Shown piece after piece: positions 696 to 62,105 of a stretch of DNA of 64,000 nucleotides. Location: the NCBI GenBank assembly GCA_041665925.1, contig JBAYHW010000005.1:13819-77818 (forward strand), in the 5' to 3' direction. The DNA is from Minisyncoccota bacterium (GTDB taxonomy: Bacteria; Patescibacteriota; Minisyncoccia; Phycocordibacterales; UBA9973). The translations under genes were made by a program, and so were the position numbers. The first letter of the stretch is position 1; each line of letters starts with the position of its first letter. The notes under the pieces were generated by a model. It had not been told where the DNA came from. It made no database searches and worked only from the letters and a program-made list of their open reading frames with translations.

Positions 696-721
696 ACATT
701 TCTAGGAACTCATTGTTTTAC

Positions 722-759
722 ACAGACAAAAACCACCCGTAAAGGTGGTTTTTGTCTGT
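722..759 (+). terminator. Perfect 16-bp stem-loop (ACAGACAAAAACCACC-CGTAAA-GGTGGTTTTTGTCTGT) followed by a T-rich run
   Basis: Seen directly in the sequence. The position right after the first pilin gene is typical for major-pilin stoichiometry control (terminator or attenuator). Confidence 0.7.
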
Positions 760-813
760 GTATTTGGTACAATTAATTAATTAAAAGGCATTATAAAATT
801 AATAGTAAAAGTT

Positions 814-1347: not shown

Positions 1348-1360
1348 TTAAAAGTTAAAT

Positions 1361-2152: not shown

Positions 2153-2159
2153 AGAATAG

Positions 2160-2801: not shown

Positions 2802-2803
2802 TT

Positions 2804-3394: not shown

Positions 3395-3395
3395 A

Positions 3396-3842
3396 ATGTT
3401 AAAAATTTTTTCAAAAAAAAATAAAGGCGGATTTACTCTAGTGGAAACACTTGTGGCTATTTCAATTTTTACAGTCTCTATTCTCGGGCTTATGTCTATT
3501 TTATCTTCTGGAATTTCTAGTACTACTTATGCTAAAAATAAAATGATTGCCGGGTATTTAGCACAAGAAGGAATAGAGTATGTGAGAAATATGCGCGATA
3601 CTGCCGCACTCACGGCAGCAGATGCTGACACTGGGTGGGCTAACTTTAAAACTAGCGTTGCTCCACCTGCGTTACCTCCTGTATTAAATAGCCCAGATAC
3701 TTATTTTACTCGCATCTTATCAGTGGAAACCACTACTAACCCGGACGAACTCAAGGTTACCTGTGTTGTTTCTTGGACTCAACCTTCCGGTCCTCAAAGC
3801 GTAACCTTGTCAGAGAATTTATTTAATTGGATACAGATATGA
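3396..3842 (+). CDS. Prepilin-type minor pilin, PilV-like (148 aa)
   Basis: N-terminus NKGG|FTLVETLVAISIFTVSILGLMSIL. The stop TGA at 3840-3842 overlaps the next gene's ATG. Confidence 0.75.
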   Translation: MLKIFSKKNKGGFTLVETLVAISIFTVSILGLMSILSSGISSTTYAKNKMIAGYLAQEGIEYVRNMRDTAALTAADADTGWANFKTSVAPPALPPVLNSPDTYFTRILSVETTTNPDELKVTCVVSWTQPSGPQSVTLSENLFNWIQI

Positions 3843-8015: not shown

Positions 8016-9119
8016 ATGAATTATATACACAAATTTTTACCTTCAATAATAGTAATAGTCTTTTCATTTTTAGTTGTTTCGTCTGTCGGGGCAGTCACTA
8101 ACTCACCCAGCCTGGGGATGGCAAAGACATACGCTGTATTAAGCAGTACATACACCAACACTAGTGCTGGAACCGTAATCAATGGGGACGTTGGATTTAC
8201 TACACCACCAGCCGTTGCCCCTTTAGGGACGCATCTAAATTATGGCTGGCTAGCTCCGTATGCAGTGGCTGGGACAGATCAGGCTACAGCTCTTTCTTCT
8301 TTAACTTCGGAAGGTTGCACTTTTAATTTTCCTGGAGGAGCTATAAATTTATCTACAGATACTACACATGGACCGATAGGTGTATATACTCCGGGTGTGT
8401 ATTGTAGTACTGGAGCAATGGATATAGGAGGACCTTTAAGTTTAAATGGGAACGGAACTTATGTTTTTAGAACAGGTGGTGCACTTACTTCTACTGTGGG
8501 AGCTATCGTTGCATTAAATGACGGAGCATCTGCTTGTAACATATTTTGGATTCCCACTGGGGCGACTACGCTTGCCGCAAACACTACATTTTTTGGAAAT
8601 ATTATAGACGATGCGGGAATTACAGTAGGAGCAAATTCTACTATATTTGGAAGGTTGTTAGCTTTTGCTGGCACTGTAACAACAGATACTAATACTATTA
8701 CAGTTCCAACATGTTCTTCTGGCGTTAATGGGACAATAGGCGGTGGAATACCTTCTCCAGTAAATGGAACAATAGGTGGAAATGTCGGTGGAGGTGGAGT
8801 AAATGGAACAATAGGTGGAAATGTCGGTGGAGGTGGAGTAAATGGAACAATAGATGGAACAGTTGGAGGGTTTGTGAGTGGAACTATTGGCGGAATAATT
8901 GATGGAACATCAGGAGGGGGTGGGGGCGGAAGTAGTAGCGGTAGCAGAAGTAGCGGTGGCGGGAGCGTCTTGGGAGCTAGTACTGGTGGCAATTCGCCTG
9001 GACAAGTCTTAGGAGCCTCTACAGAAAATGTTCCCGGTTTTCCTAACACCGGATATGCTCCTGAAATAAGATATGATTTTATTCAAATTTTCACTCAAAT
9101 GGTCTTGGCTCATATTTAG
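8016..9119 (+). CDS. Secreted ice-binding-like (DUF3494) fold protein with tandem Gly-rich repeats and a C-terminal FPNTG sorting-like motif (367 aa)
   Basis: Signal peptide, then YAVLSSTYTNTSAGTVINGDVGFTTPP...IFGRLLAFAGTVT, matching the DUF3494/IBP beta-helix family pattern. This is followed by 39-bp tandem repeats encoding VNGTIGGNVGGGG. The C-terminus ...VPGFPNTGYAPEIRYDFIQIFTQMVLAHI overlaps the downstream sortase gene. Confidence 0.7.
   Translation: MNYIHKFLPSIIVIVFSFLVVSSVGAVTNSPSLGMAKTYAVLSSTYTNTSAGTVINGDVGFTTPPAVAPLGTHLNYGWLAPYAVAGTDQATALSSLTSEGCTFNFPGGAINLSTDTTHGPIGVYTPGVYCSTGAMDIGGPLSLNGNGTYVFRTGGALTSTVGAIVALNDGASACNIFWIPTGATTLAANTTFFGNIIDDAGITVGANSTIFGRLLAFAGTVTTDTNTITVPTCSSGVNGTIGGGIPSPVNGTIGGNVGGGGVNGTIGGNVGGGGVNGTIDGTVGGFVSGTIGGIIDGTSGGGGGGSSSGSRSSGGGSVLGASTGGNSPGQVLGASTENVPGFPNTGYAPEIRYDFIQIFTQMVLAHI
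8761..8856 (+). repeat. Tandem 39-bp repeat (2.5 copies) encoding the VNGTIGGNVGGGG unit inside the IBP-like gene
   Basis: Exact copies at 8761-8799 and 8800-8838, then a partial third copy. Confidence 0.85.
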
Positions 9120-9654
9120 TATTGTTGGAATAATATTTTTCTTAACATTTTTTTTACTTCAAAATTATGATAGAGGAGTAGGGCTTTGGAATGACGAAGG
9201 GCTATCTCAACTTCCAATGCGACTTAAAATTCCATTAATTAATGTTGATGCAGGGGTAGAAAAAGTGGGACTTACCAAAGAAGGAGTAATGGGGGTACCG
9301 AAAGGTCCAGCTGAAGTAGCGTGGTATATGCTCGGCTCAAAACCAGGTGAATTTGGGAGCGCAGTTATTGCTGGTCATTCTGGATATAAAAACAATCAAC
9401 CCGCGGTGTTTGATAATTTATACAAATTAAAAAAAGGAGATAAAATATATGTAGAAGATGATGTTGGAAAAGTTATTACTTTTATTGTTCGAGAAAGTCG
9501 CAGTTATGACTCGAACGCAGATGCCTCGTCTGTCTTTAATTCTTCTGATGGCCTAGCTCACCTAAATTTAATTACTTGCTCTGGATACTGGAATGAAATA
9601 GAAAAAACCCATTCAAGTAGACTTGTAATATTTACCGATAAAGAAGTAGAATAG
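9073..9654 (+). CDS. Sortase family transpeptidase (membrane-anchored)
   Basis: N-terminal TM segment, catalytic His in VIAGHSG, and the TLxTC-type active site NLITCSGYW. Confidence 0.8.
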   Translation: MILFKFSLKWSWLIFSIVGIIFFLTFFLLQNYDRGVGLWNDEGLSQLPMRLKIPLINVDAGVEKVGLTKEGVMGVPKGPAEVAWYMLGSKPGEFGSAVIAGHSGYKNNQPAVFDNLYKLKKGDKIYVEDDVGKVITFIVRESRSYDSNADASSVFNSSDGLAHLNLITCSGYWNEIEKTHSSRLVIFTDKEVE

Positions 9655-21028: not shown

Positions 21029-21065
21029 TTTCTATCCTATTTATATTTGTTTTGTATAATGGTAC

Positions 21066-21321
21066 ACTTTTATTTGGATGAAAGGGGGTGATACAATGCT
21101 GAGTGACCGGAGACACTGGCGAGAGGCTCAGAGTCGAGACGACCAAAATAAATGGTCTCGACTCCCTGGGGCCACGGTGTCCGTCGCTTCTCTCCTTCCC
21201 GACGGGGAGGGAGCGAAGACCGAGAATTGTCTCCCCGACGATTCTCCCTCCGATGAACAGTCGGAGGAAAGCTAGGGGACCAGGAGGCTGTCGCATCTGC
21301 GGCCGCCTCCTCTTCTTTTTT
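21066..21321 (+). ncRNA. GC-rich, highly structured transcription unit of about 255 nt with its own -10 box and intrinsic terminator. Candidate novel structured ncRNA. It alternatively encodes an acidic 59-aa ORF (21096-21275) preceded by the SD AAAGGGGGTGAT.
   Basis: TATAAT at 21055-21060 with an upstream TG. Perfect 10-bp hairpin GAGTCGAGAC/GTCTCGACTC. A 13-bp helix CTCCTTCCC-GACG-GGGAGGGAG. A CCTCCGA/TCGGAGG helix. Terminator AGGAGGC...GCCTCCT plus T-run at 21282-21321. About 60% GC against about 40% in the flanks. Confidence 0.45.
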
Positions 21322-21385
21322 ACCCAATTTTACAACACAAAATTCGCTAAAAATCACTAGCAAAATATATAGGTTTTTGGTATAA

Positions 21386-23476
<2,091 letters not shown>

Positions 23477-23510: not shown

Positions 23511-25238
23511 TTATTTTTTATTCTTAATTTCTTCTAAAAGTTTTGAGATAAGTTCTTCTTTTGAAATTTGGCCTAGCTGGCCGGCGTCTCGGCATTCCAA
23601 AGTAATTTTGTTTGCTTCAATTTCTTTATCGCCGATAACTATCCAGTAAGGGAGCTTGTTATTTTTAGCATCGCGGACTTTGCCCCCCAAGTTTCCATCA
23701 TTATCATCTAGTTCAGCGCGAATATTATTTTCTTTCAATAACTCAAAAACCTTTCTAGCTTCAGCGTTATGATTTTCGCGAACAGGGATGACTTTCACCT
23801 GCACTGGTGCGAGCCAGAGAGGGAAGGCGCCGGCGGTGTGTTCTACGAGAATTCCGATGAATCTCTCCAGAGATCCATAAATTACCCTGTGTATTGCTAC
23901 AGGTCTTTTTCTTGTGCCATCTTTATCCATATATTCTAGTTCAAAACGCTGTGGTTGCTGAAAATCTAATTGAATAGTACCCATTTGCCAATCACGACCA
24001 ATTGCATCTTTCATTATGATGTCTATTTTAGGTCCATAAAATGCGCCATCTCCTTCAGCGACAGAATATTCCTTATCTGATTTTTCTAAAACATTTCGGA
24101 GGGCTTGTTCGGCCTTATTCCAAGTTTCTATTTCACCCAAAAAGCTTTCTGGGCGGGTTCCTAACCTGAAACGATATTCCAAATTAAATATTCCATAGAA
24201 TTCTTTACAAATTTCCATAATAGATCGGTATTCATCTTCTATCATGTCTTCGCTGACATAATTGTGAGAATCGTCTTGCTGGAAAGAGCGACAGCGGAGG
24301 AGGCCATTCAATGTTCCTGATCTTTCATATCTATGAAGTCTATCAGTATCTGACAAGCGGAGGGGCAGGTCTTTATAACTCACTTGCATGGATTTGAACA
24401 CTACCATGGCGTTCGGACAATTCATTGGCTTGATACCATAAACTTCATTTTCTCCCATGTCTGCAATGAACATGTCATCTTTATAGTGGTCCCAGTGTCC
24501 AGATGTTTTCCAGAGATCAGATTTATTTACTAATGGGCTTGCAATTTCTAAATAACCAAGTTCATTGTGCCTTTTGCGCCAATAGTTTTCTAACTCTTTA
24601 TATAAGATTAAACCTTTAGGTAACCAATACGGCATTCCTGGAGAAGTTTCATGGAACATAAAAAGCCCTAGCTCGCGGCCAAGTTTCTTATGGTCCCTTT
24701 TTTCTGCTTCCTCTCTTTGTGCTAGATAAGCATCTAGTTCTTCTTTATTTTTGAAAGCTAATCCGTAAATACGGGTGAGCATTTTATTTTTTTCATCTCC
24801 ACGCCAGTATGCTCCGGCTATGCGGTCGAGCTTGAAAGAGTCAGGTAGTACTTCATCCATATTCTCCACATGTCCGCCCTTACATAAATCCCAGTAACTC
24901 CCAGATTTATAAAAAGTTACCTTTTGTCCTTCTTTAGTAAATTCATCTATTAGTTCTGCCTTGTAGGGGTTGCCTGGGTATTCTTTTTTTGCTTCGTTAC
25001 CAGAGAGTTCATGTTTTTCGAATTTCTTCCAAGTAGGTAAAATTTTATGCATTACCTTCTCTATCTTTGGTAAGTCCGCATCCGAAAGGGGGCTAGAGAA
25101 TTCAAAGTCGAAATAAAAACCATTATCTATCGCTGGGCCAATGGTGCGCTTGGTATCTGGGTAGAGTTCCATAACTGCTGCGGCGAGTAGGTGAGCCAAT
25201 GAATGCCTTAAATTGTGCAATTTATCAGGGTTTTCCAT
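23511..25238 (-). CDS. thrS: Threonyl-tRNA synthetase (short form, 575 aa)
   Basis: Class II catalytic core and anticodon-binding domain. The HxxxH/CxxxH-type zinc site region matches ThrRS. Confidence 0.88.
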   Translation of the reverse strand: MENPDKLHNLRHSLAHLLAAAVMELYPDTKRTIGPAIDNGFYFDFEFSSPLSDADLPKIEKVMHKILPTWKKFEKHELSGNEAKKEYPGNPYKAELIDEFTKEGQKVTFYKSGSYWDLCKGGHVENMDEVLPDSFKLDRIAGAYWRGDEKNKMLTRIYGLAFKNKEELDAYLAQREEAEKRDHKKLGRELGLFMFHETSPGMPYWLPKGLILYKELENYWRKRHNELGYLEIASPLVNKSDLWKTSGHWDHYKDDMFIADMGENEVYGIKPMNCPNAMVVFKSMQVSYKDLPLRLSDTDRLHRYERSGTLNGLLRCRSFQQDDSHNYVSEDMIEDEYRSIMEICKEFYGIFNLEYRFRLGTRPESFLGEIETWNKAEQALRNVLEKSDKEYSVAEGDGAFYGPKIDIIMKDAIGRDWQMGTIQLDFQQPQRFELEYMDKDGTRKRPVAIHRVIYGSLERFIGILVEHTAGAFPLWLAPVQVKVIPVRENHNAEARKVFELLKENNIRAELDDNDGNLGGKVRDAKNNKLPYWIVIGDKEIEANKITLECRDAGQLGQISKEELISKLLEEIKNKK

Positions 25239-25286
25239 AATATTATGACTATATCACAATTGTGGGTTTTTTTAAACCCATTTTGC

Positions 25287-25315
25287 TTGACAAAAAATTT
25301 TTTAGGTGTAGCGTG
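25287..25315 (+). promoter_or_regulatory. Candidate sigma70 promoter (TTGACA-16 nt-TAGCGT) for the small GC-rich gene
   Basis: Consensus -35 seen at 25287-25292. The -10 is weak. Confidence 0.4.
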
Positions 25316-25344
25316 AAAACGAGTCTGTAGAAAGGAGACCGATC

Positions 25345-25488
25345 ATGACTCAGACGTACGGTGTCTTCAATCCGCCTCCGGAGTCCAAAAAAGCTCCGCG
25401 GTGGAAGATCATCGTCCTCATTCTGTCTGGGCTCGTTCTCGGTGGCGTTGGTTGGTACCAATTTGTCCACCTTGCGGCACAGCAGTAA
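25345..25488 (+). CDS. Small GC-rich single-TM peptide (47 aa), MTQTYGVFNPPPESKKAPRWKIIVLILSGLVLGGVGWYQFVHLAAQQ
   Basis: Strong SD GAAAGGAG 8 nt upstream of the ATG. A clean hydrophobic helix. A canonical terminator follows immediately. Not in the ORF track because it is under 60 aa. About 58% GC. Confidence 0.55.
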   Translation: MTQTYGVFNPPPESKKAPRWKIIVLILSGLVLGGVGWYQFVHLAAQQ

Positions 25489-25500
25489 AACGGACCAAGC

Positions 25501-25540
25501 GGGGTTGTCGCAGAACATCGCGACAACCCCACTTCTTTTC
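25501..25540 (+). terminator. Intrinsic terminator GGGGTTGTCGC-loop-GCGACAACCCC followed by CTTCTTTTC
   Basis: Perfect 11-bp stem plus a T-run, directly after the 47-aa ORF. Confidence 0.8.
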
Positions 25541-25618
25541 ACGTGACCCCCATTTTAAATGAAATACGATATATTTAGGATTTGCAATTCACCCATAATA
25601 TGCTAGTATAAAAACACT

Positions 25619-25846
25619 ATGGTAGTACGAATGAGACATACAAAATCGCATACGAAAAACAGGCGCTCGCATCATGCACTAAAGAGCACTAGTTTTACGA
25701 AGTGCGAAAACTGCAAAGCTTTAAAGCGACGACACACCGTCTGCTCTGCTTGTGGCTTTTATCGAGGGAAAAAGGTTTTAGATTTGATTAAGAAGACAGA
25801 AAAGAAGCAAAAGAAAGCCAAAGCCAAGAAAGCTGAATCCAAATAA
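25619..25846 (+). CDS. rpmF: 50S ribosomal protein L32 (bL32)
   Basis: N-terminus MVVRMRHTKSHTKNRRSHHAL and the zinc ribbon CENC...CSAC. Confidence 0.85.
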   Translation: MVVRMRHTKSHTKNRRSHHALKSTSFTKCENCKALKRRHTVCSACGFYRGKKVLDLIKKTEKKQKKAKAKKAESK

Positions 25847-25868
25847 GTAATTTTTGTTTTTTAACACA

Positions 25869-29671: not shown

Positions 29672-29716
29672 AAATAGAGTGTTAATCTTTACCTTGGGTA
29701 GCAGGAAGGAGAAACG

Positions 29717-29974
29717 ATGCGAAGTCGCCCCTTTGAGGAGACGATCCTCGAGACGATAAGCGAGATGTGCATTCCCCAGGTCGAACTGGTGGCCAATCTG
29801 ATACTTAGGACCACCATCAACAACAACCACGATGAGATTGCCGTCGCCTGGCGGGAGCGATGCCTGGAACTGGGACTCCGCGACCACATGGATGTGGTCG
29901 CGGCGCTCGAGTTTAAAAGGCGAAGTATCCAGCCCGCCTACAACGCTGTTTTCTCTGGCATTTTCGATCAGTAG
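29717..29974 (+). CDS. GC-rich hypothetical protein (85 aa), MRSRPFEETILETISEMCIPQVELVANLILRTT...
   Basis: Strong SD GGAAGGAGA 4 nt upstream of the ATG. Followed by the hairpin AGCCCG...CGGGCT plus a T-rich tract. About 55% GC. No family recognised. Confidence 0.45.
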   Translation: MRSRPFEETILETISEMCIPQVELVANLILRTTINNNHDEIAVAWRERCLELGLRDHMDVVAALEFKRRSIQPAYNAVFSGIFDQ

Positions 29975-30034
29975 TAGCAGTGAGCCCGTGTGAGGAGTCC
30001 GCGTACTATACGCTACCCCGCGGGCTTTCTCATT

Positions 30035-30202
30035 TTATTTCTTCCAATCTTTAACCTGCACGCCACCTTGGATTTTAGTGACCACGAGCTTCTGCCGTTC
30101 TTTCCAGCCGAGTGCTCGCACGACTTCGATCGGCAGAGTCAAATAATATGACCCGCCCGACTGCTGTAGATTTCTAATTTTTGCATCTTTTATTTTTCTC
30201 AT
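30035..30202 (-). CDS. AbrB/MazE/SpoVT-fold (swapped-hairpin) small DNA-binding protein, 55 aa
   Basis: The minus-strand translation MRKIKDAKIRNLQQSGGSYYLTLPIEVVRALGWKERQKLVVTKIQGGVQVKDWKK shows the characteristic pattern: a G-rich turn followed by a LTIPKEIREKLGL-like strand-helix. Not in the ORF track because it is under 60 aa. Confidence 0.6.
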   Translation of the reverse strand: MRKIKDAKIRNLQQSGGSYYLTLPIEVVRALGWKERQKLVVTKIQGGVQVKDWKK

Positions 30203-30276
30203 CCCGTTAGAAATTAAGCTAATAAATAAATCCTGTTAGCTTGACGGAAATCTAAAGATTTCCTATTTCTAACGGG
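30203..30276 (-). repeat. Inverted-repeat cassette, copy 1: CCCGTTAGAAAT...ATTTCTAACGGG, flanked by ATGAG on both sides and containing a 22-aa mini-ORF (30214-30282)
   Basis: 12-bp terminal inverted repeats seen in the sequence. A second copy is at 33062-33126. Confidence 0.7.
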
Positions 30277-30290
30277 ACTCATACATGTAA

Positions 30291-30338
30291 GTATATACCA
30301 ATCCCTGGGGATATCCCTAGGGAAGTCCCTAGGGATTC
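30291..30338. promoter_or_regulatory. Operator-like repeat block: GTATATACCAATCCCTGGGGATATCCCTAGGGAAGTCCCTAGGGATTC, carrying tandem TCCCTAGGGA palindromes. Direct repeat of 31060-31096.
   Basis: It lies in the divergent region between the AbrB-like gene on the minus strand and the two small GC-rich ORFs on the plus strand. Confidence 0.6.
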
Positions 30339-30404
30339 GCAAGAATCCTATATCTGGACAATAGTAATATTTAATGTTAGAAAATACTTGAAGGAGGACT
30401 CGAT

Positions 30405-30611
30405 ATGAATTATCGAGCAAAGATCAAGCGGGCCAGAGCCCGCCGGTACCACGAACGTTGGAAGGCAGCGCGACGCGCTGGCCTTCCCAAGGGCCCCAGC
30501 GGGACCACCAAGTCGAATCTGCTTCGGCCGAGCAAGCCGGTACGTCGGGCACACCAGAAGGAGGGGGACGGGTGGTGCCCCGAATGCTGGTCTTTCATGT
30601 GCCGGGCGTGA
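30405..30611 (+). CDS. GC-rich small basic protein (68 aa), Arg/Lys-rich, with C-terminal CPECWSFMC
   Basis: Strong SD GAAGGAGGAC 5 nt upstream of the ATG. A candidate -35/-10 pair (TGGACA ... TAGAAA) upstream. Confidence 0.45.
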   Translation: MNYRAKIKRARARRYHERWKAARRAGLPKGPSGTTKSNLLRPSKPVRRAHQKEGDGWCPECWSFMCRA

Positions 30612-30635
30612 GCGGCCTGGGGCTGTCAATCAAAA

Positions 30636-30908
30636 ATGCACAAGGAGGAGGTTACCGTGTTCGTAATTGAGCATCTCGAGCAGTTTTGCCAAGACCACCC
30701 CGAGTTCTTCGGCGATAACACGCGTGAGTGTGTTATCGCCGAAGCCAAGAACCGGGCGAACGAGGAAGGAGTTCTCATGTCCGCTGAAGCCGAGAGCCTT
30801 CTCGGCCCGACTCTCGCGTTCCAGTTCTTCTCGGAGATGACTAGCACGAGCAAGCATCTCCAGATCAGCATGGAAGTTGCGGAGCGTCTGCGGAAGAGCG
30901 TTCGGTAA
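30636..30908 (+). CDS. GC-rich small acidic protein (84-90 aa). The probable start is the GTG at 30657, which is preceded by AAGGAGGAGG.
   Basis: An SD sits 5 nt before the in-frame GTG. The ORF is followed by the CCCCG...CGGGG hairpin and, further downstream, the terminator at 31019-31056. Confidence 0.4.
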   Translation: MHKEEVTVFVIEHLEQFCQDHPEFFGDNTRECVIAEAKNRANEEGVLMSAEAESLLGPTLAFQFFSEMTSTSKHLQISMEVAERLRKSVR

Positions 30909-31018
30909 TCCTGGTTAGCACAACCCCGTCGACGACAGCGAAGTCGGCGGGGTGGGGCTGGTGGGTTCTTTAAAATCGTGTTAGTAAAACACGAACCTTA
31001 AAAGGGTTCGTTGTATCG

Positions 31019-31056
31019 AGCCCTGCAAGGAAAAGAACTCTTGCGGGGCTTTTCTA
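31019..31056 (+). terminator. Intrinsic terminator AGCCCTGCAAG-loop-CTTGCGGGGCT followed by TTTTCT
   Basis: Stem plus T-run at the right edge of the GC-rich island. Confidence 0.7.
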
Positions 31057-31059
31057 ATT

Positions 31060-31116
31060 GGTATATACCAATCACTAGGGAAGTCCCTAGGGACTGATCT
31101 ACGCCATGGCGTAGAT
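31060..31116. repeat. Second copy of the operator-like repeat (TGGTATATACCAATCACTAGGGAAGTCCCTAGGGACT) followed by a perfect 20-bp palindrome ATCTACGCCATGGCGTAGAT
   Basis: TGGTATATACCA (12 bp) and AGTCCCTAGGGACT (14 bp) are perfect palindromes. The 20-bp palindrome is at 31097-31116. Confidence 0.7.
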
Positions 31117-31141
31117 TTCTTAGTATATTATATATGATAGA

Positions 31142-33061: not shown

Positions 33062-33132
33062 CCCGTTAGAAGTTTTAATAATTTATAATTTATTTTATTA
33101 GTCTCGATAGTTGAACTTCTAACGGGACTCAT
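33058..33132 (-). CDS. 24-aa mini-ORF (MSPVRSSTIETNKINYKLLKLLTG) inside cassette copy 2, translationally coupled on both sides
   Basis: Its ATG overlaps the rnr stop (ATATGA), and its TGA overlaps the ATG of the downstream 639-aa gene (GGATGAGT). Confidence 0.4.
   Translation of the reverse strand: MSPVRSSTIETNKINYKLLKLLTG
33062..33126 (-). repeat. Inverted-repeat cassette, copy 2: CCCGTTAGAAGT...ACTTCTAACGGG, flanked by ATGAGT direct repeats
   Basis: The same termini as copy 1, with a compensatory A/T to G/C change at IR position 11 and unrelated AT-rich interiors. Confidence 0.7.
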
Positions 33133-35087
33133 ATTAAAACGTAATCAATAGTTTTTCTCTCTAAGTCTACACCTTTTACTTTTATTTTTACTTTATCACC
33201 TAGTCTGTATCTTTTTTTTTTCTTTTGCCCGACTAGTTCTAGTTTCTTTTCATTGAAGACATAGAAATCATCATTCATATCTCGCATTCTTACTAGGCCT
33301 TCACACTTCGTCTCTACTTCTTCTACATACATACCCCATTCTGTCATTCCACTAATTACTCCACTAAATTTTTCACCCATACGCTTAGACATATATTCTA
33401 CTTGTTTGTATTTGATAGATGCACGCTCGGCGTCGGATGCGCGTTTCTCTTGCTCTGAGGCGACTTCAGACATTTTTTCATATTCAAATAACTTTGCTTG
33501 AGCTACTTTTTTCCCCACGAGGTGATTTGCGAGGAGCCTGTGGATGATTATGTCGGGGTAGCGCCTGATAGGGGAAGTGAAGTGAGTGTAATGTTCGAAA
33601 GCGAGTCCATAATGCCCGATATTTTTTGTAGAATAGATGGCTTTAGCCATAGACCTTATCACCGCGCGGTTGACTGTATCTTCTTCCGCTTTTCCCGCTA
33701 AATTCTCTAGAAGTTTATTTATTTCAAATGTAGGAATGACTCCATCCCGAAGAGTTACCTTGTGCCCCAAACTACGCAAGAAGAATGCTAAGTCAGTCAT
33801 CTTTTCTTTACTGGGCAGGTCATGAACACGATAAATTGAAACACTCTCTTCTTTCCCTTTTTCCTGCCCGACCGAGTGGCCTCGGCCGTTCGGGCGGGTC
33901 GGAGATAAAATCTCAGCTACTTTTTTATTGGCTAACAACATAAATTCTTCAATAAGTTTGTTGGAGTCGCCACGTTCTTTTTTGATAACTTTTATTGGGG
34001 TGCCGTTTTTGTCTAAGACGAACTTTACTTCTTCTTGATCTAGAGATATTGCGCCTTTGGCAAATCTTTCTTTAGTTAATTTTTTAGCTAAATTGTTTAA
34101 GATAGCAAGCTCATGGTGTAGGGGAGTGCCTGGTTTTTTTATAGAAAGCTCCGCTTCTTCATAAGTAAACCTTTTTTGAGAATGAATCACTGTCCGACCG
34201 AACCAAGCGCTTTTAACTTTGGCATTTTTATCTATTACGAACACAGCGCTCATGGTCAGCCGGTCTTTGTTGGGCACTAGACTGCATAAGTCATTCGAAA
34301 GAATTTCTGGAAGCATGGGGATGGTTCTGTCTACTAGATATACTGAAGTGCCTCGTTCGCGAGCTTCCACGTCTAAGGCACTGCTGACTTTCACATAATG
34401 CGAAACGTCAGCTATGTGGATGCCTACCTCGTATTCTTCTTTTCCTATTTCTTTAAAAGATATTGCATCATCGAAATCCTTTGCATCTGAAGGGTCAATA
34501 GTAAAGGTTAAAACTTTACGGAAATCTTTACGCCCAGCATAATCGCTCTCTCTTATGCCTTCGTGTTTAATTTTTCTCGCTTCTTCTTCTACTTTATTTG
34601 GAAGTTCGGAATCAAAACCTTTTTCCATAGCTATGGCGTGCATTTCGGTGTCATTGTCTCCAGGGTAGCCTAAAACTTTAACCACTTTTCCTAAAGGAGC
34701 TTTCTCTCTTTCTTTCCAAGATGTGATTTCTGCGAAAACCTTCTGCCCAACCTTTGCTCCATTTAGAAATTCTTTTGGAATTAAAATATCCGTATACATT
34801 TTCGTATCATCTGGCTTCAAAAAGAAAATAGATTTCTCTAATTCTAGAATCCCAGCGAAACGCATCTTGGCGCGAGAAATTATTTTCGTCACTTCAGCTG
34901 TCTGCCTACCTTTTCCCTTCGGATGGAGGAGTATCTCCACCGTGTCGCCATGCATAGCGGTGTTCAAGTGCTTGAAGTCAATTTCTGGGTCTTGCCCCTT
35001 ATTTTTACTGTCTCCAAGAGCCACATATCCTGTGCCTTTGGCCGAGATGGAGATAGTGCCCCTTAGCTTATTAGTGTGTTGTTTCAT
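33129..35087 (-). CDS. rnr: Ribonuclease R / RNase II family 3'-5' exoribonuclease
   Basis: The RNB catalytic domain (HYGLAFEHYTHFTSPIRRYPDIIIHRLL), cold-shock-like N-terminal domains and a C-terminal S1 domain. Confidence 0.88.
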   Translation of the reverse strand: MKQHTNKLRGTISISAKGTGYVALGDSKNKGQDPEIDFKHLNTAMHGDTVEILLHPKGKGRQTAEVTKIISRAKMRFAGILELEKSIFFLKPDDTKMYTDILIPKEFLNGAKVGQKVFAEITSWKEREKAPLGKVVKVLGYPGDNDTEMHAIAMEKGFDSELPNKVEEEARKIKHEGIRESDYAGRKDFRKVLTFTIDPSDAKDFDDAISFKEIGKEEYEVGIHIADVSHYVKVSSALDVEARERGTSVYLVDRTIPMLPEILSNDLCSLVPNKDRLTMSAVFVIDKNAKVKSAWFGRTVIHSQKRFTYEEAELSIKKPGTPLHHELAILNNLAKKLTKERFAKGAISLDQEEVKFVLDKNGTPIKVIKKERGDSNKLIEEFMLLANKKVAEILSPTRPNGRGHSVGQEKGKEESVSIYRVHDLPSKEKMTDLAFFLRSLGHKVTLRDGVIPTFEINKLLENLAGKAEEDTVNRAVIRSMAKAIYSTKNIGHYGLAFEHYTHFTSPIRRYPDIIIHRLLANHLVGKKVAQAKLFEYEKMSEVASEQEKRASDAERASIKYKQVEYMSKRMGEKFSGVISGMTEWGMYVEEVETKCEGLVRMRDMNDDFYVFNEKKLELVGQKKKKRYRLGDKVKIKVKGVDLERKTIDYVLI

Positions 35088-35123
35088 TGTATTTAATATA
35101 GCAAATATGGGGCAAAATAGTGG

Positions 35124-35152
35124 TTGACAAGCACCCCAAAATGTGCTATACT
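35124..35152 (+). promoter_or_regulatory. Near-consensus sigma70 promoter TTGACA-17 nt-TATACT
   Basis: -35 at 35124-35129 and -10 at 35147-35152, upstream of the GC-rich lipoprotein gene. Confidence 0.65.
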
Positions 35153-35209
35153 ATACCACAGAAGAGCGAGGTGGCCATTTAAGCACCTGCTCAAAAGGAG
35201 AATTGACAA

Positions 35210-35590
35210 ATGAAGAAGCTCATCGTCATCCTGGTGGCCGTGTTGGCCACCGCCTGCGCCACCACCGGCGTGAAGCTCGCGGAGCAGGCCGCTCCGCAGA
35301 CGGTTCTCTTCGCTGACGTGACCACCTGCCTCAAGGCGGCCATTGACGCAACACTGACTCCGACGGCGGCAGCGGAATTCTGTCTCGAGGCAAGACGTCT
35401 CGAAGCCGACCGCGCAAAAGCCACCGCCGAAGCAGCGGCCAAGGCGGAGGCGAACAAGCCGGCATGTGGGCTCTGCCTCATGCCGGGGACAGGATACGGA
35501 TACTACAACACGTATCCACCGCCTCCGCCGCGACCGATCGGCGGCTACACCAACACCGTCGTAGCATACACGGAACACAAGGTGAAGTAG
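35210..35590 (+). CDS. GC-rich small lipoprotein (126 aa) with lipobox LATAC, an Ala-rich helix and a C-terminal PPPPPRP/Tyr-rich tail
   Basis: SD AAAAGGAGA 8 nt upstream. Signal peptide MKKLIVILVAVLATAC. About 62% GC with high GC3. Its own promoter and terminator. Confidence 0.6.
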   Translation: MKKLIVILVAVLATACATTGVKLAEQAAPQTVLFADVTTCLKAAIDATLTPTAAAEFCLEARRLEADRAKATAEAAAKAEANKPACGLCLMPGTGYGYYNTYPPPPPRPIGGYTNTVVAYTEHKVK

Positions 35591-35622
35591 GCATCACATC
35601 GAAGGGGATGTTTTCGTCCCAA

Positions 35623-35660
35623 GGCGTCGTCGCAATCGCACGACGCCTTTTCATTTTCAT
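35623..35660 (+). terminator. Intrinsic terminator GGCGTCGT-loop-ACGACGCC followed by TTTTCATTTTCATTTTTC
   Basis: 8-bp GC stem plus a T-rich tail directly after the lipoprotein ORF. Confidence 0.7.
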
Positions 35661-35709
35661 TTTTCTATACCAACATTGACAAAATGCTAAAGTATGGTAG
35701 TTTGGAGCA

Positions 35710-36222
35710 ATGTCAAAGAAAGCCTTAGGGTTTATTTTAATAAGTATATTTTTCCTTTTATTTGGATACGCCAAGTCTGCAGCAGCTTGCTACACTTGCT
35801 ACCCGTATTATTACGGATACTCTTTCGGATACGGCACCAACGATCCTTACTATGTAGGGGACTCTATGGGTACTAATAATTATTTCCCAGCGAATCAACC
35901 TATCTTGGTAAATACCGGCAGGCTAAATGTCACTGGAGTGGAATTTAATACCAATGGTGGTTATTACGGAGGGAATACATATTATAGTGGATATAATACC
36001 ATCGGAGTGAATGAATATTTTCTAACAAACCAGAATGTGTCCGTGGGCACCACACAATACAATATCGGAGGAGATATGTATGGAGTAAACAATTACTATA
36101 ACGCCGACGATAGATACTATGCAGACGACAGATATTTCGCTCGCGAAAGACATGATACAAGTGAAAGATATTCTGTAAGGAGAGGAGGGACCGGCGAGAG
36201 TGAGAGGTATAGAGTAAATTAA
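35710..36222 (+). CDS. Secreted Tyr/Gly/Asn-rich low-complexity protein (170 aa) with the N-terminal CYTCYPYYYGY motif
   Basis: Signal peptide MSKKALGFILISIFFLLFGYAKS, then YY/GY/NY-rich repeats and a DDRYYADDRYFARERHD tail. Confidence 0.5.
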   Translation: MSKKALGFILISIFFLLFGYAKSAAACYTCYPYYYGYSFGYGTNDPYYVGDSMGTNNYFPANQPILVNTGRLNVTGVEFNTNGGYYGGNTYYSGYNTIGVNEYFLTNQNVSVGTTQYNIGGDMYGVNNYYNADDRYYADDRYFARERHDTSERYSVRRGGTGESERYRVN

Positions 36223-36280: not shown

Positions 36281-36589
36281 ATGTTAAAAATAAGATTACA
36301 GAGAATAGGCAGGAAGAACGACCCATCTTTTCGGGCAGTTTTGACTGATTCTAAAAACAGCACCAAGAGCGGAAAGTTTTTAGAAATTTTGGGTACTTAT
36401 AACCCAAAGGCAGGAGAGAAAAATTTAAATGTGGACAGGATAAAGTACTGGATGAGTAAAGGCGCGAAGCCTTCTGATACGATGCACAATTTCTTAGTGC
36501 ACGACAAGGTCATAGCAGGTAAGAAAATAAATGTCTTGCCGAAGAAGAAGCCTACAGTAAAGAGAAAAGAGTTGAAAGCTAAAAAGTAA
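36281..36589 (+). CDS. rpsP: 30S ribosomal protein S16 (bS16)
   Basis: MLKIRLQRIGRKNDPSFRAVLTDS...LGTYNP matches S16. Confidence 0.9.
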   Translation: MLKIRLQRIGRKNDPSFRAVLTDSKNSTKSGKFLEILGTYNPKAGEKNLNVDRIKYWMSKGAKPSDTMHNFLVHDKVIAGKKINVLPKKKPTVKRKELKAKK

Positions 36590-47809: not shown

Positions 47810-48607
47810 TTACTTCAGTAAGATTCCCAGTATTTTATTTACCATATCAGTAGGTAAGGCACCATTCATGCTCATTACCTTTTTATTATTAGAACTAAAT
47901 GACACAGCTCCAGGGCTACCAATCGCACTTTCTATATCACTTCGCATCTTCGTAGTTATGTCCTTTTTAGTCATGATTACGTTAAATGGAGTTCCAATTT
48001 GACCACTTTTATTTTTTTCATCTATACTAGCCTGTATTTTATCTTTATATTTTCCACTATCAAGGCAGGAATTAAATTTAGCAACATCTAGTCCAATAGC
48101 TTGTGCTATTTTAGGAAGCTCTGAAACTTCAAGTTTATTGTTAGATTCTGTTCTTTTGAAAACTTCATCTATGTATTGCCAAAAAGCATTATTACCTCCT
48201 TGTTCCCAGGCACATTCTGTGGCCTCTGCTTCATAGAAAGCTTTAGGGTGGAGGCTAGGTATAGGGTAATGTCTGAATACCCACGATACTTTGTTGTCAT
48301 TTTGGGATATAACCTCGTGCATAGTGTTGTGGAAAGATTTGCAGAATGGGCATTCAGTATCTGAGTATTCGACTATTACAACCGGGGCGTCTATATTGCC
48401 CAAAACGTGTTCATCAGCCGAAACCTTTTTAACATTCATTGTAGCTGATCTGTCGTTTGGGTCATTTGTGGGGTTTATTGGTTGTGGAGCAGTACCTCTT
48501 AATAAGATAGCTCCAGCTATTAATGCGCCAGCTATAATTATTGCTCCAACTATAGGTTTCTGGCTATTGGTATTATGTTGTTTGTTTTCAAGGTTATTTT
48601 CTTCCAT
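47810..48607 (-). CDS. DsbA-family thiol:disulfide oxidoreductase, membrane-anchored (265 aa)
   Basis: N-terminal TM, a thioredoxin fold with CPFCKSF, and a cis-Pro region. Confidence 0.8.
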   Translation of the reverse strand: MEENNLENKQHNTNSQKPIVGAIIIAGALIAGAILLRGTAPQPINPTNDPNDRSATMNVKKVSADEHVLGNIDAPVVIVEYSDTECPFCKSFHNTMHEVISQNDNKVSWVFRHYPIPSLHPKAFYEAEATECAWEQGGNNAFWQYIDEVFKRTESNNKLEVSELPKIAQAIGLDVAKFNSCLDSGKYKDKIQASIDEKNKSGQIGTPFNVIMTKKDITTKMRSDIESAIGSPGAVSFSSNNKKVMSMNGALPTDMVNKILGILLK

Positions 48608-61304: not shown

Positions 61305-62105
61305 ATGGATAGCATAACAAAAATAGTATTATTTAAAAATAAACAGATACGCAAGACACTTTATAATCATGAGTGGTGGTTTTCTGTAGCAGATGTATGT
61401 GAAGCTCTCACTGATAGTATTGATTCTGGAGCTTATTGGAGAAAACTAAAACAAAGGCTAACAGAAGAAGGTAGTGAAGTCGTGACATTTTGTCACGGGT
61501 TGAAATTATTGGCTCCAGACGGAAAAATGAGAGAAACGGATTGTGCTGATACAGAAGGAATATTTAGGATAGTTCAGTCTATTCCATCACCCAAAGCCGA
61601 ACCTTTCAAGCGTTGGTTAGCTAAAGTAGGCTATGAAAGAATACAAGAAATTGAAAATCCGGAGCTTGCCACAAAAAGGACCAGAATGCTTTACAAGTTA
61701 AAAGGGTATAGTGATGATTGGATAGAAAAAAGAATGCGAGGCATCGTTATTCGCGAGGAATTAACTGATGAATGGAAAAATAGAGGAGCAAAAGAAGATA
61801 GAGATTATGAAATTTTAACAGCAGAGATTTCAGAAGCTACATTTGGAGTTACTCCGAGTGAATATAAAAAATTAAAGGGTTTAAAGCGCCAAAATTTGCG
61901 TGATCATATGGATGATTTTGAATTGATTTTTAATATGCTCGGAGAAAGAGCTACTACAGAAATACATCGTACTGAAAATTCTAAAGGAGTTTTTAAATTA
62001 AAAGCTGATGCTAAAGCAGGGGGCAACATTGCTGGTGGCGCTCGCAAAAAACTTGAAAAAAGATTAAGGCGTTCAATTGTAACCAAGAAGAATTTTTTAA
62101 AATGA
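61305..62105 (+). CDS. BRO-N domain protein (phage antirepressor / DinD-like)
   Basis: N-terminal KTLYNHEWWFSVADVCEALT matches the Bro-N signature (WFVAKDVAKALG). Confidence 0.65.
   Translation: MDSITKIVLFKNKQIRKTLYNHEWWFSVADVCEALTDSIDSGAYWRKLKQRLTEEGSEVVTFCHGLKLLAPDGKMRETDCADTEGIFRIVQSIPSPKAEPFKRWLAKVGYERIQEIENPELATKRTRMLYKLKGYSDDWIEKRMRGIVIREELTDEWKNRGAKEDRDYEILTAEISEATFGVTPSEYKKLKGLKRQNLRDHMDDFELIFNMLGERATTEIHRTENSKGVFKLKADAKAGGNIAGGARKKLEKRLRRSIVTKKNFLK

What the first reader, a model, noticed from the sequence alone, without database searches (positions are those of the whole stretch)
35120..35665. High-GC lipoprotein gene with a textbook promoter and terminator next to rnr
TTGACA-17-TATACT, SD AAAAGGAGA, then MKKLIVILVAVLATAC (lipobox) and an Ala-rich helix ending PPPPPRP...YTNTVVAYTEHKVK, followed by a GC hairpin terminator. 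At about 62% GC this is the clearest single example of foreign-composition cargo in the window. The product is a surface lipoprotein, so it could mediate host-cell interaction.
Basis: partly seen in the sequence, partly recalled or inferred. Interest (0 to 1): 0.6.

Follow-up and report, generated by a model that had tools for sequence, protein, structure and literature searches.

The report
GC-rich small lipoprotein gene, not foreign
This is a real, self-contained gene for a small exported lipoprotein from an undescribed family found only in ultra-small Patescibacteria. Its high GC content looks like a long-maintained family trait linked to an unusually hairpin-dense mRNA, not a sign of recent foreign origin.

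Summary
ORF 35210-35590 (126 aa) is 63.5% GC with GC3 0.76, in a 39% GC window. It has the best promoter match in the 64 kb, a Shine-Dalgarno site, a lipobox (Cys16) and a 10-bp hairpin terminator.

The "foreign cargo" reading is not supported.
- No homologue turned up outside Patescibacteria, on viral contigs, or in phage or plasmid records.
- The gene belongs to an unannotated family of about 65 clusters of 112-195 aa. Members have a signal peptide or lipobox, a helical domain with two invariant Cys, and a Gly/Tyr/Pro/Arg-rich disordered tail.
- Members sit as single genes in three fixed housekeeping slots. The lipobox branch sits at rnr|X|rpsP in six genomes.
- Every member examined is 10-28 GC points above its flanks, although orthologues are only 42-49% identical and synonymous sites are near saturation.
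- The coding sequences fold far better than synonymous-codon shuffles: mean z -4.0 (n=14) against -0.6 for neighbouring genes (p=9e-6).

Best reading: a resident, probably strongly expressed envelope protein whose GC-rich, hairpin-dense mRNA is maintained by selection, plausibly for mRNA stability. Protein function, lipidation and any role in host contact are untested.

The parts
35124..35129 (+). -35 hexamer TTGACA
   Evidence: Consensus scan. It is the only perfect -35 among the three >=11/12 sites in the 64 kb. A TTGAC(A/T) box is present at the same position upstream of the family genes in L001, L087, L090-L092 and L094-L096.
35144..35152 (+). Extended -10: TGcTATACT
   Evidence: The same TG(c/a)TATACT element is found in the other rnr|rpsP-slot members L001, L094, L095 and L096.
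35160..35209 (+). Predicted 5' UTR of about 50 nt, with a 5'-proximal hairpin at 35164-35192. The transcription start is inferred from the -10 position, not mapped.
   Evidence: Fold of 35160-35660, MFE and centroid structures. The start site is an inference.
35193..35201 (+). Shine-Dalgarno AAAAGGAGA, 9 nt upstream of the ATG
   Evidence: Sequence. The initiation region (-30..+30) is less structured (dG -12) than the gene body (mean -17.5 per 60 nt). The same holds in all 12 family transcripts tested.
35210..35590 (+). CDS, 126 aa plus TAG stop. GC 63.5%, GC3 0.76.
   Evidence: Identical to NCBI MAG protein WCT44_03235, Candidatus Paceibacterota.
35210..35257 (+). Signal peptide MKKLIVILVAVLATA plus the lipobox Cys16 (TGC, 35255-35257)
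   Evidence: PS51257-style pattern match. The Cys followed by A-T-T-G is conserved in P0002. 26 of 65 family members carry a lipobox.
35264..35452 (+). Helical domain, aa 19-81, with invariant Cys40 and Cys58. Motifs LAEQAAPQ..LF and FCLEARRLEADRAK.
   Evidence: Alignment A3: C40 and C58 are invariant in 39 sequences. AlphaFold2 model: helices at 19-27, 31-35, 37-46 and 51-81, with pLDDT 88-94 over residues 41-80. The disulfide is inferred.
35453..35587 (+). Disordered Gly/Tyr/Pro-rich tail, aa 82-126: CGLC, GYGYY, PPPPPRP
   Evidence: No secondary structure and pLDDT 49-67. Composition G 13%, Y 13%, P 18%. Gly/Tyr-rich, then Arg/Pro-rich, tails occur across the family.
35621..35666 (+). Intrinsic terminator: 10-bp perfect stem (35621-35630 / 35640-35649), 9-nt loop, T-rich tract
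   Evidence: The TTTTCA x2.7 tract is.
35710..36222 (+). Second gene in the same rnr|rpsP slot: a 170-aa Tyr-rich secreted protein at native GC (0.40). It is not a member of the family.
   Evidence: No Pfam, NCBIfam or PHROG match. mRNA fold z = +0.8. Absent from L001, where the family gene abuts rpsP.
33129..35087 (-). rnr (RNase R), the left boundary of the slot, divergent from the lipoprotein gene
   Evidence: Pfam RNB, CSD2, OB_RNB and S1 domains.
36281..36589 (+). rpsP (ribosomal protein S16), the right boundary of the slot
   Evidence: 91% aa identity to the S16 gene of L001, which carries Pfam Ribosomal_S16. tblastn across relatives.

Best explanation
The locus is a monocistronic unit of promoter, 5' UTR, coding sequence and terminator. 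It encodes a small exported protein, probably lipid-anchored at Cys16. The protein has a two-cysteine helical hairpin (residues about 19-81) and a disordered Gly/Tyr/Pro-rich tail.

It belongs to an unannotated family seen so far only in Patescibacteria. The gene is a resident of the rnr|rpsP intergenic slot of this Nomurabacteria/Paceibacteria clade, not a recent import.

The high GC and GC3 are a family-wide trait. They persist in AT-rich genomes even though synonymous sites have turned over, and they go together with a string of local 7-24 bp hairpins along the mRNA body. The translation start region stays open.

The mechanism I commit to is this. Nucleotide-level selection keeps the mRNA GC-rich and hairpin-dense, probably to make it long-lived. 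Together with a near-consensus extended -10 promoter and a strong Shine-Dalgarno site, this gives high output of an abundant envelope protein, whose tail contacts the cell wall or an external surface.

Shown: the gene anatomy, the family, its taxonomic restriction, the conserved slots, the persistent GC excess and the excess folding.

Inferred: lipidation, the disulfide, high expression, mRNA stability as the selected property, and the protein's role.
For: Anatomy.

Family:
- 40 representatives at E<=1e-3 in the exhaustive search, and 33 in the profile search. All are 112-195 aa except one 1,240-aa representative (P0038), which was left out of the analysis. They share LAxAAxP...C...(about 17 residues)...C..E..R..A motifs.
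- The named hits are only Patescibacteria or Paceibacterota.
- There is a single copy per locus.

Fixed slots:
- rnr|X|rpsP: the window, L001, L019, L094 and L095 (rpsP call truncated at the contig end), plus L096, where rpsP lies downstream but rnr was not identified upstream.
- dprA|X|topA: L083-86 and L093.
- pilB|X|tsaE: L087-L090 and L092; in L091 only tsaE-polA is conserved, with a TPR gene upstream.
- Sources.

GC excess in every member:
- Gene GC 0.50-0.67 and GC3 0.53-0.85, against flanks of 0.35-0.48.
- The codon preferences (GCC/GCG, CCG, ACC, CTC, AAG) are not those of this genome's ribosomal-protein genes.

Persistence: between the window and L001, S16 is 91% identical with 11/21 four-fold sites changed. 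The lipoprotein is 49% identical with 18/30 changed. GC3 is still 0.76 and 0.73.

RNA folding:
- The whole transcript has z = -6.0 against dinucleotide shuffles.
- Coding sequences against synonymous-codon shuffles: 14 family genes, all negative, mean -4.0.
- The sense strand folds better than the antisense strand in 10 of the 11 family genes tested (and in the L010 gene).
- Matched neighbour genes average -0.57, native window genes about -0.1, and genes of a 65% GC genome about +0.2.
- Mann-Whitney p = 9e-6 against neighbours and 9e-8 against all controls.
- The structures are serial local hairpins, and the initiation regions are weakly structured.

Structure model.

A DsbA-like exported thioredoxin is encoded in the window, which is consistent with extracytoplasmic disulfide formation.
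Against: - For the window gene alone the synonymous-shuffle z is modest (-2.4 to -3.0), and 1 of 48 shuffles folded better.
- All folding evidence is computed. There are no expression, half-life or probing data.
- Specific hairpins are not clearly conserved in register between homologues. I found only anecdotal compensatory synonymous changes, for example GAT/GCA to GAC/GCG between L087 and L090. Selection may therefore act on general foldedness, or another process may generate the palindromes.
- The slot is empty in 8 of about 17 relatives, and occupancy is patchy on the RNase R tree. Gains by recombination between lineages cannot be excluded.
- The lipobox has Ala rather than Leu at -3. Lgt and LspA were not found in the part of the genome available.
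- About half the family has a signal-peptidase-I type signal instead of a lipobox.
Confidence: 0.62

Rival explanations
1. Recent horizontal acquisition from a high-GC bacterium. The GC and codon usage would be those of the donor and not yet ameliorated.
For: GC3 of 0.76 and GC-organism-like codon preferences. The GC boundaries at promoter and terminator are sharp. The slot is empty in the closest relative by RNase R, L003.
Against: - No homologue was found outside the family in 1.84 billion or 5.8 billion proteins, and all named hits are Patescibacteria.
- The only hit in a 65% GC contig (L002) matches the signal peptide alone.
- Orthologues in the same slot with the same promoter occur in five other genomes, at 42-49% identity (among the three compared) and with near-saturated synonymous sites.
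- There are no mobility genes or flanking repeats.
- The promoter is of the same type as in all other family loci in AT-rich genomes.
Confidence: 0.06
2. A moron-like expression cassette (promoter, gene, terminator) that circulates among Patescibacteria. It would move by phage, plasmid, or transformation with homologous recombination of the conserved flanks. Its composition would reflect a GC-richer reservoir element.
For: - It is an autonomous unit with deviating GC.
- The slot is patchily occupied and holds different small secreted-protein genes in different species: L009, L010, L017, L018, L023.
- A second GC-rich island with 33-nt direct repeats lies 4 kb away in another variable slot.
Against: - No family member was found on 2.9 million viral contigs, in 50,697 phage records or in 72,556 plasmids.
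- There is no PHROG or PADLOC match.
- There are no repeats or integrase at the cassette, and only one copy per locus.
- In all 18 loci examined the context is housekeeping genes of AT-rich genomes.
- Each subfamily is tied to one slot, which fits descent better than free movement.
- This model does not explain the excess mRNA folding.
Confidence: 0.12
3. The primary product is a structured RNA, either a non-coding or a dual-function RNA, as is usual for GC-rich islands in AT-rich genomes. The ORF would be secondary or incidental.
For: - A strong promoter and terminator around a GC-rich, highly folded 500-nt transcript with z = -6.0.
- Excess folding across the family, stronger on the sense strand.
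- The tails are rich in Gly, Pro, Arg and Ala, as expected from translating GC-rich RNA.
Against: - The ORF is intact in about 65 clusters.
- Signal peptides or lipoboxes are conserved, as are two invariant Cys and motifs such as FCLEARRLEADRAK and ANEAADATKASRP.
- 55-60% of identical residues use different codons, which indicates protein-level constraint.
- A strong Shine-Dalgarno site sits in an open initiation region.
- There is no Rfam match even at E<=1.
- Hairpins are not conserved in register.
Confidence: 0.07
4. GC-biased gene conversion or another biased mutational process at a recombination-prone slot raises GC3, with no selection on the RNA.
For: The slots are variable between species, which implies recombination. 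GC3 is elevated in every member.
Against: - The GC elevation stops sharply at the promoter and terminator and does not affect the co-resident Tyr-rich gene, which has GC 0.40.
- It occurs in three unrelated slots but only in this family, plus the L010 gene.
- A compositional bias alone does not give negative z against shuffles that keep codon usage.
- Genes of a 65% GC genome have z near 0.
Confidence: 0.08

Closest known systems
Braun's lipoprotein Lpp of Enterobacteria (Pfam LPP, PF04728)
   Same: Both are small, Ala-rich, largely helical lipoproteins made from a monocistronic gene with a strong promoter and an intrinsic terminator. From general knowledge, lpp mRNA is unusually stable and Lpp is the most abundant E. 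coli protein. That is the working analogy for how this locus operates.
   Different: There is no sequence or profile similarity. This protein has a two-Cys helical hairpin plus a disordered Gly/Tyr/Pro tail, not a trimeric coiled coil. Lpp tethers an outer membrane to peptidoglycan through its C-terminal Lys. A terminal Lys is not conserved in this family, and from general knowledge Patescibacteria are not thought to have an outer membrane.
Phage 'morons' and small genomic islets (promoter-gene-terminator units of deviant GC)
   Same: An autonomous transcription unit with a composition unlike its neighbours, inserted between two conserved genes.
   Different: There is no prophage or mobile-element context and no viral, phage or plasmid homologues. 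The gene holds its slot across deeply diverged genomes.
GC-rich structured-RNA islands in AT-rich genomes (the signal used to find non-coding RNAs by composition)
   Same: A sharp GC peak in an AT-rich genome, bounded by a promoter and a terminator, with strongly negative folding z-scores.
   Different: This one is clearly protein-coding and matches no Rfam family.
Gly/Tyr-rich structural or adhesive proteins (plant glycine-rich wall proteins, insect chorion or cuticle proteins)
   Same: The tail composition, with GYGYY-type motifs. One family member gives a weak Chorion_2 hit, E=0.002.
   Different: The resemblance is compositional only. No homology or shared domain was found, and the window protein itself gives no hit.

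Membership tests
Bacterial lipoprotein (Lgt/LspA substrate; PROSITE PS51257 / Pfam LPAM_1) | N-terminal signal peptide with a basic n-region and a hydrophobic h-region | tested here: met
   MKK followed by LIVILVAVLA. The AlphaFold2 model shows a helix at 2-17.
Bacterial lipoprotein (Lgt/LspA substrate; PROSITE PS51257 / Pfam LPAM_1) | Lipobox ending in an invariant Cys at the cleavage site | tested here: met
   L-A-T-A-C16 matches the PS51257-style pattern. It does not match the strict [LVI][ASTVI][GAS]C form, because -3 is Ala. The Cys is conserved in 26 of 65 family members, and 12 of those match the strict form. The Pfam LPAM_1 model itself did not hit this protein.
Bacterial lipoprotein (Lgt/LspA substrate; PROSITE PS51257 / Pfam LPAM_1) | Lgt and LspA encoded by the organism | not tested
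   Only 64 kb is available. Sixteen window proteins were scanned with Pfam, four of them small GC-rich or Tyr-rich ORFs, and none is Lgt or LspA. The rest of the genome was not examined.
Bacterial lipoprotein (Lgt/LspA substrate; PROSITE PS51257 / Pfam LPAM_1) | Diacylglyceryl modification of the Cys | not testable with these tools
   This needs labelling, globomycin sensitivity or mass spectrometry.
Braun lipoprotein Lpp (PF04728) | Sequence or profile similarity to LPP | tested here: not met
   No Pfam hit for this protein or for any of 39 members. No NCBIfam hit.
Braun lipoprotein Lpp (PF04728) | Conserved C-terminal Lys for peptidoglycan linkage | tested here: not met
   The window protein ends in ...HKVK, but family C-termini vary (..PPR..RPQK..PSR..WQN and others).
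Recently transferred foreign gene | Composition and codon usage atypical for the host | tested here: met
   GC 63.5% against 39%. GC3 0.76 against an expected 0.35.
Recently transferred foreign gene | Homologues in a plausible donor lineage with matching composition | tested here: not met
   None found. The L002 hit matches the signal peptide only.
Recently transferred foreign gene | Absent from the same site in related genomes, or present as near-identical copies | tested here: not met
   Present at the same site in L001, L019, L094, L095 and L096, at 42-49% identity among those compared and with near-saturated synonymous sites. It is also absent from 8 relatives, so the slot is dynamic.
Recently transferred foreign gene | Mobility signatures: integrase, flanking repeats, adjacent tRNA | tested here: not met
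   No flanking direct or inverted repeats. No tRNA nearby. The neighbours are rnr and rpsP.
Phage moron | Own promoter and terminator around an accessory gene | tested here: met
Phage moron | Located within a phage or prophage genome | tested here: not met
   Housekeeping flanks. No PHROG match. No viral or phage homologue.
Known structured RNA family (Rfam 15) | Covariance-model match | tested here: not met
   None at the gathering threshold. Only a chance-level snoRNA hit at E=0.98.
Rho-independent terminator | GC-rich hairpin followed by a U-tract just after the stop codon | tested here: met
   A 10-bp perfect stem at 35621-35649 and a T-rich tract, starting 31 nt after the stop. Termination itself was not assayed.

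The most novel reading that the evidence does not exclude
Patescibacteria carry a class of small exported-protein genes whose GC-rich composition is an adaptation, not a mark of foreign origin. Synonymous sites would be selected to build hairpin-dense, nuclease-resistant mRNAs, so that ultra-small cells with few transcripts and ribosomes can make large amounts of an envelope protein. If so, some 'foreign-looking' GC islands in AT-rich genomes are mis-called as horizontal transfer. This family, together with the L010 gene and perhaps the 29.7-31.1 kb ORFs, would be a natural model for selection on mRNA structure across a whole coding sequence.
Probability: 0.35. Interest if true: 0.7.

Novelty: new variant of a known kind. 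Interest (0 to 1): 0.5.

Why it matters
Atypical GC and codon usage are routinely taken as evidence of horizontal transfer. Here a gene family stays 10-28 GC points above its AT-rich hosts across deep divergence, in fixed chromosomal slots and with no donor in sight. The excess is tied to measurable excess mRNA folding.

If this is confirmed, three things follow:
- It cautions against compositional calls of horizontal transfer in candidate-phyla genomes.
- It identifies an unannotated and probably abundant envelope protein family of Patescibacteria. That makes it a candidate surface marker and a candidate player in cell-wall or host contact.
- It offers a clean natural case of selection on synonymous sites for mRNA structure.

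If it is not confirmed, the locus is simply an orphan lipoprotein gene.

Tried and rejected
- The metagenome scan with the two-sequence alignment returned only L002, a 65% GC contig. The match covers residues 1-30, the signal peptide, of a 211-aa protein, so I rejected it as a homologue.
- MAFFT of the window against L001 mis-aligned the L001 family gene with the Tyr-rich ORF. I used only the S16 part.
- Pfam, NCBIfam, PHROGs and PADLOC gave no match for the protein.
- The PDB sequence profile search gave no hit.
- Foldseek against the PDB gave only a chorismate mutase helix bundle at E=1.5, which is meaningless. The afdb50 library was unavailable.
- No tandem repeats lie inside the gene, and no flanking repeats surround it.
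- Viral-contig scan with the full alignment A3 failed because no block was conserved enough. Scans with A4 and A1 ran and found nothing.
- Phage and plasmid tblastn found nothing.
- Four literature searches found no description of this family or of this phenomenon in Patescibacteria.
- The first folding run timed out.
- I tried to show covariation in the conserved ANEAADATKASRP hairpin. With only 8 DNA sequences the result is anecdotal and I do not rely on it.
- I considered translational-selection codon bias. I rejected it because this genome's ribosomal-protein genes prefer GCT, CCT, GGT and AAA, while this gene prefers GCC/GCG, CCG and AAG.
- I considered assembly chimera. I rejected it because the same GC-rich gene within AT-rich flanks was assembled independently in several samples: L083/L084, L085/L086 and L087/L088.
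Full report
OBSERVATION

The window is 39.3% GC. The 300-nt maximum of the whole window, 66.3%, lies at 35101-35700. That is 4.7 sd above the mean, and the 99th percentile is 57%.

The signals around it are as follows.
- Upstream lie TTGACA (35124-35129), a 17-nt spacer and TATACT (35147-35152), preceded by TG. That is 11 of 12 consensus positions.
- My own scan of both strands of the 64 kb finds only three sites at 11/12 or better. This is the only one with a perfect -35 and a TG extension.
- AAAAGGAGA lies 9 nt before the ATG.
- Thirty-one nt after the TAG stop there is a perfect 10-bp stem (35621-35630 / 35640-35649) with a 9-nt loop and a T-rich tract.

IS THE COMPOSITION REALLY ATYPICAL?

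Yes, and not only because the protein is Ala-rich.
- GC3 is 0.76, against 0.23-0.55 for the other genes of the window.
- Re-encoding the protein with the window's own codon usage gives 48.8% GC and GC3 0.35, against the observed 63.8% and 0.76.
- The preferred codons are GCC/GCG, CCG, ACC/ACG, CTC, GTG and AAG.
- The window's ribosomal-protein and tsf genes prefer GCT, CCT, GGT, ACT and AAA. Ordinary expression-linked codon bias in this genome therefore does not explain the pattern.

WHAT THE PROTEIN IS

It matches nothing in Pfam, NCBIfam, PHROGs, PADLOC or PDB sequences.

The word-indexed search of 5.8 billion proteins found two hits.
- Itself: an NCBI metagenome-assembled genome (MAG) protein, Candidatus Paceibacterota, WCT44_03235.
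- One 115-aa relative, P0002.

An exhaustive HMMER search of 1.84 billion representatives, using a profile of these two, found 40 proteins at E<=1e-3. A second profile search added about 26 more.

All but one are 112-195 aa; the exception, the 1,240-aa P0038, was left out. They share one architecture:
- a signal peptide;
- a block LAxAAxP(S)xxLF;
- two invariant cysteines about 17 residues apart (C40 and C58 here), the second inside a FCLEARRLEADRA-type helix;
- an Ala-rich stretch;
- a Gly/Tyr-rich and then often Arg/Pro-rich tail.

Twenty-six of 65 members, including this one, have a lipobox by a PS51257-style rule. Here it is L-A-T-A-C16, with Ala at -3, so the strictest form is not met. 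Most of the rest have a signal-peptidase-I type ...AQQEGS signal.

AlphaFold2 with the family alignment gives mean pLDDT 74. The model has the signal helix, short helices at 19-27, 31-35 and 37-46, and a long helix at 51-81 with pLDDT about 90. Residues 82-126 are disordered. Foldseek against the PDB found nothing meaningful.

A DsbA-like exported thioredoxin is encoded at 47810-48607, so a Cys40-Cys58 disulfide is plausible. It remains an inference.

WHERE THE FAMILY LIVES

All source names attached to hits are Patescibacteria or Paceibacterota.

I recovered DNA for 18 loci. Each holds a single-copy gene in one of three housekeeping slots of AT-rich genomes.
- rnr|X|rpsP: the window, L001, L019, L094, L095 and L096. 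In L096 the upstream gene was not identified as rnr.
- dprA|X|topA: L083-86 and L093.
- pilB|X|tsaE-polA: L087-L092. L091 has a TPR gene instead of pilB upstream.

The lipobox subfamility goes with the rnr|rpsP slot, and all its members examined share the TTGAC(A/T)-17-TG(c/a)TATACT promoter.

Nothing related is found on 2.9 million IMG/VR contigs, in 50,697 phage records or in 72,556 plasmids. No repeats or mobility genes flank the cassette.

THE SLOT

A genome scan with RNase R gave about 22 Nomurabacteria/Paceibacterota relatives. What lies between rnr and rpsP varies.
- In eight of them (L003, L006, L008, L011, L013, L014, L015, L022), rnr and rpsP are divergent neighbours with only 74-123 nt between them.
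- In others the gap holds a family gene (L019).
- L010 has a different GC-rich lipoprotein gene (GC 0.65, GC3 0.78).
- L023 has a Gly-rich 381-aa secreted protein.
- L017 and L018 have native-GC, Tyr-rich repeat proteins.
- L009 has a 46-aa lipoprotein.

Occupancy is patchy on an RNase R tree. So the slot is a hot spot for small exported-protein genes. In the window it holds two: the family gene and a native-GC, Tyr-rich 170-aa ORF at 35710-36222.

WHY 'FOREIGN CARGO' FAILS

Every family gene examined is GC-rich relative to its host: gene GC 0.50-0.67 and GC3 0.53-0.85, against flanks of 0.35-0.48.

The comparison between the window and L001 shows how old the trait is.
- S16 is 91% identical, yet 11 of 21 four-fold sites differ.
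- The lipoprotein is 49% identical, with 18 of 30 four-fold sites changed.
- GC3 is still 0.76 and 0.73.
- Identities to and among L019 are 42-43%.

A rough two-state estimate (my inference, not a tool result) suggests that neutral decay since the window/L001 split alone should have removed about half of the GC3 excess. A single old acquisition without maintenance therefore does not fit. Repeated recent acquisitions would need a donor pool that none of the searches can see.

Homologues in the same neighbourhood exist, but they are all GC-rich too.

THE RNA-LEVEL SIGNAL

The predicted transcript 35160-35660 folds with z = -6.0 against dinucleotide shuffles, and 0 of 100 shuffles fold as well.

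Dinucleotide shuffles are a weak control for coding sequence. I therefore shuffled synonymous codons among positions encoding the same amino acid, which keeps both the protein and the codon usage fixed.

| Set | n | z against synonymous shuffles |
|---|---|---|
| Family genes | 14 | all negative, -1.3 to -6.9, mean -4.0 |
| The window gene | 1 | -2.4 to -3.0 |
| The unrelated GC-rich L010 gene | 1 | -5.0 to -5.5 |
| Matched neighbour genes in the same loci | 14 | mean -0.57 |
| Native window genes | 15 | mean -0.1 |
| Genes of the 65% GC contig L002 | 5 | mean +0.2 |

- Mann-Whitney p is 9e-6 against neighbours and 9e-8 against all controls.
- The sense strand is favoured over the antisense strand in 10 of the 11 family genes tested and in the L010 gene: mean z over the 12 is -4.1 against -2.6.
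- The structures are chains of local 7-24 bp hairpins. In the window, for example, the AAKAEA codons pair with the PPPPRP codons.
- The -30..+30 region around the start codon is AT-richer and weakly folded in all 12 transcripts tested.
- Hairpins are not clearly conserved in register. I saw only isolated compensatory synonymous changes.
- No Rfam family matches.

Coding is not in doubt. The ORFs are intact, motifs and cysteines are conserved, and 55-60% of identical residues use different codons.

INTERPRETATION

The best-supported reading is a resident, autonomously and probably strongly expressed gene for a small envelope protein. The protein is lipid-anchored in this branch. The GC-rich, hairpin-dense mRNA body is maintained by nucleotide-level selection.

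I propose mRNA longevity as the selected property. This is by analogy with the stable lpp and ompA mRNAs of E. coli, which I cite from general knowledge. This step, the lipidation, the disulfide and the protein's role (wall or surface contact through the Gly/Tyr/Pro tail) are all inferences.

The rivals are scored separately and are less well supported:
- recent horizontal transfer;
- a circulating moron-like cassette;
- a primarily non-coding RNA;
- GC-biased gene conversion.

VERDICT

- The family is undescribed, and the persistent compositional anomaly with excess mRNA folding is unusual. However, all the functional claims rest on computation.
- Interest: 0.5.

Noticed in passing
window 29672-31141: A second GC-rich island (55-65% GC) lies between the convergent smc and PGA_cap/DD-carboxypeptidase genes. 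Most relatives have only 11-130 nt at this position. The island holds small ORFs at 29717-29974, 30405-30611 (Arg-rich, with a CxxC) and 30636-30908, and an AbrB/SpoVT-like 55-aa ORF on the minus strand at 30035-30202 (phrog_4324, E=7e-6). A segment of about 770 nt is bounded by 33-nt direct repeats, GTATATACCAATC.CT.GGGA..TCCCTAGGGA, at 30291 and 31061, which contain CCCTAGGG palindromes. Two of the ORFs also fold better than synonymous shuffles (z -2.5 and -3.4). It is probably a small mobile or toxin-antitoxin-like insertion.
   Followed up: partly
window 25239-25853 (ORF 25249-25542, minus strand): This GC-rich region lies just upstream of the threonyl-tRNA synthetase-like gene (23511-25238, minus strand). 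The 97-aa GTG 'ORF' there has GC3 0.55 and folds at z = -5.6 against synonymous shuffles. It is more likely a structured leader RNA than a gene. There is no Rfam match at E<=1 apart from chance-level hits.
   Followed up: partly
window 21029-21394: A 366-nt intergenic stretch of about 53% GC in a 39% GC genome. It holds only short antisense ORFs and has no Rfam match at E<=1. It is a candidate unannotated structured RNA.
   Followed up: partly
window 35710-36222; L017 gap ORF (294 aa); L018 gap ORF (354 aa): The rnr|rpsP slot also hosts native-GC, Tyr-rich secreted proteins that are unrelated in sequence. All carry a Cys-x(1-2)-Cys motif right after the signal peptide (AAACYTC, EASCGCD, AQACDCA). 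L018 consists of LADYLTPADY-type repeats. No family annotation was found.
   Followed up: partly
L010, gap between rnr and rpsP (163-aa ORF): A different GC-rich lipoprotein gene sits in the same slot: GC 0.65 and GC3 0.78 in a 44% GC locus, with an LLATGC lipobox. Its mRNA fold z is -5.0 to -5.5. It has a ...NPAPVIVVPTRYY hinge and an Arg-rich tail that resemble the family's ASRPxVVxPYGY region, but it lacks the two-Cys domain. It may be a distant relative, or evidence that the GC-rich, hairpin-dense trait extends beyond one family.
   Followed up: partly
window 5001-5650 (inside ORF 3827-5689) and pilin-like genes 234-3842: This GC-rich patch is driven by amino-acid composition only (GC1 0.53, GC2 0.57, GC3 0.26). 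It lies in a cluster of type IV pilin-like genes with a GFTLIELLVV N-terminus and a prepilin-peptidase-like ORF. It is a useful contrast with the target, where GC3 is the anomaly.
   Followed up: partly
window 8016-9654, 47810-48607, 61305-62105: An Ice_binding-like secreted protein (8016-9119) lies next to a sortase (9073-9654). There is a DsbA-like thioredoxin at 47810-48607, and a Bro-N domain protein, often phage-associated, at 61305-62105.
   Followed up: no
L086 9756-10451: In one assembly of the dprA|X|topA locus, topA is disrupted or rearranged next to a Y1 (IS200/IS605-type) transposase gene, and the contig contains a run of N upstream of the family gene.
   Followed up: no
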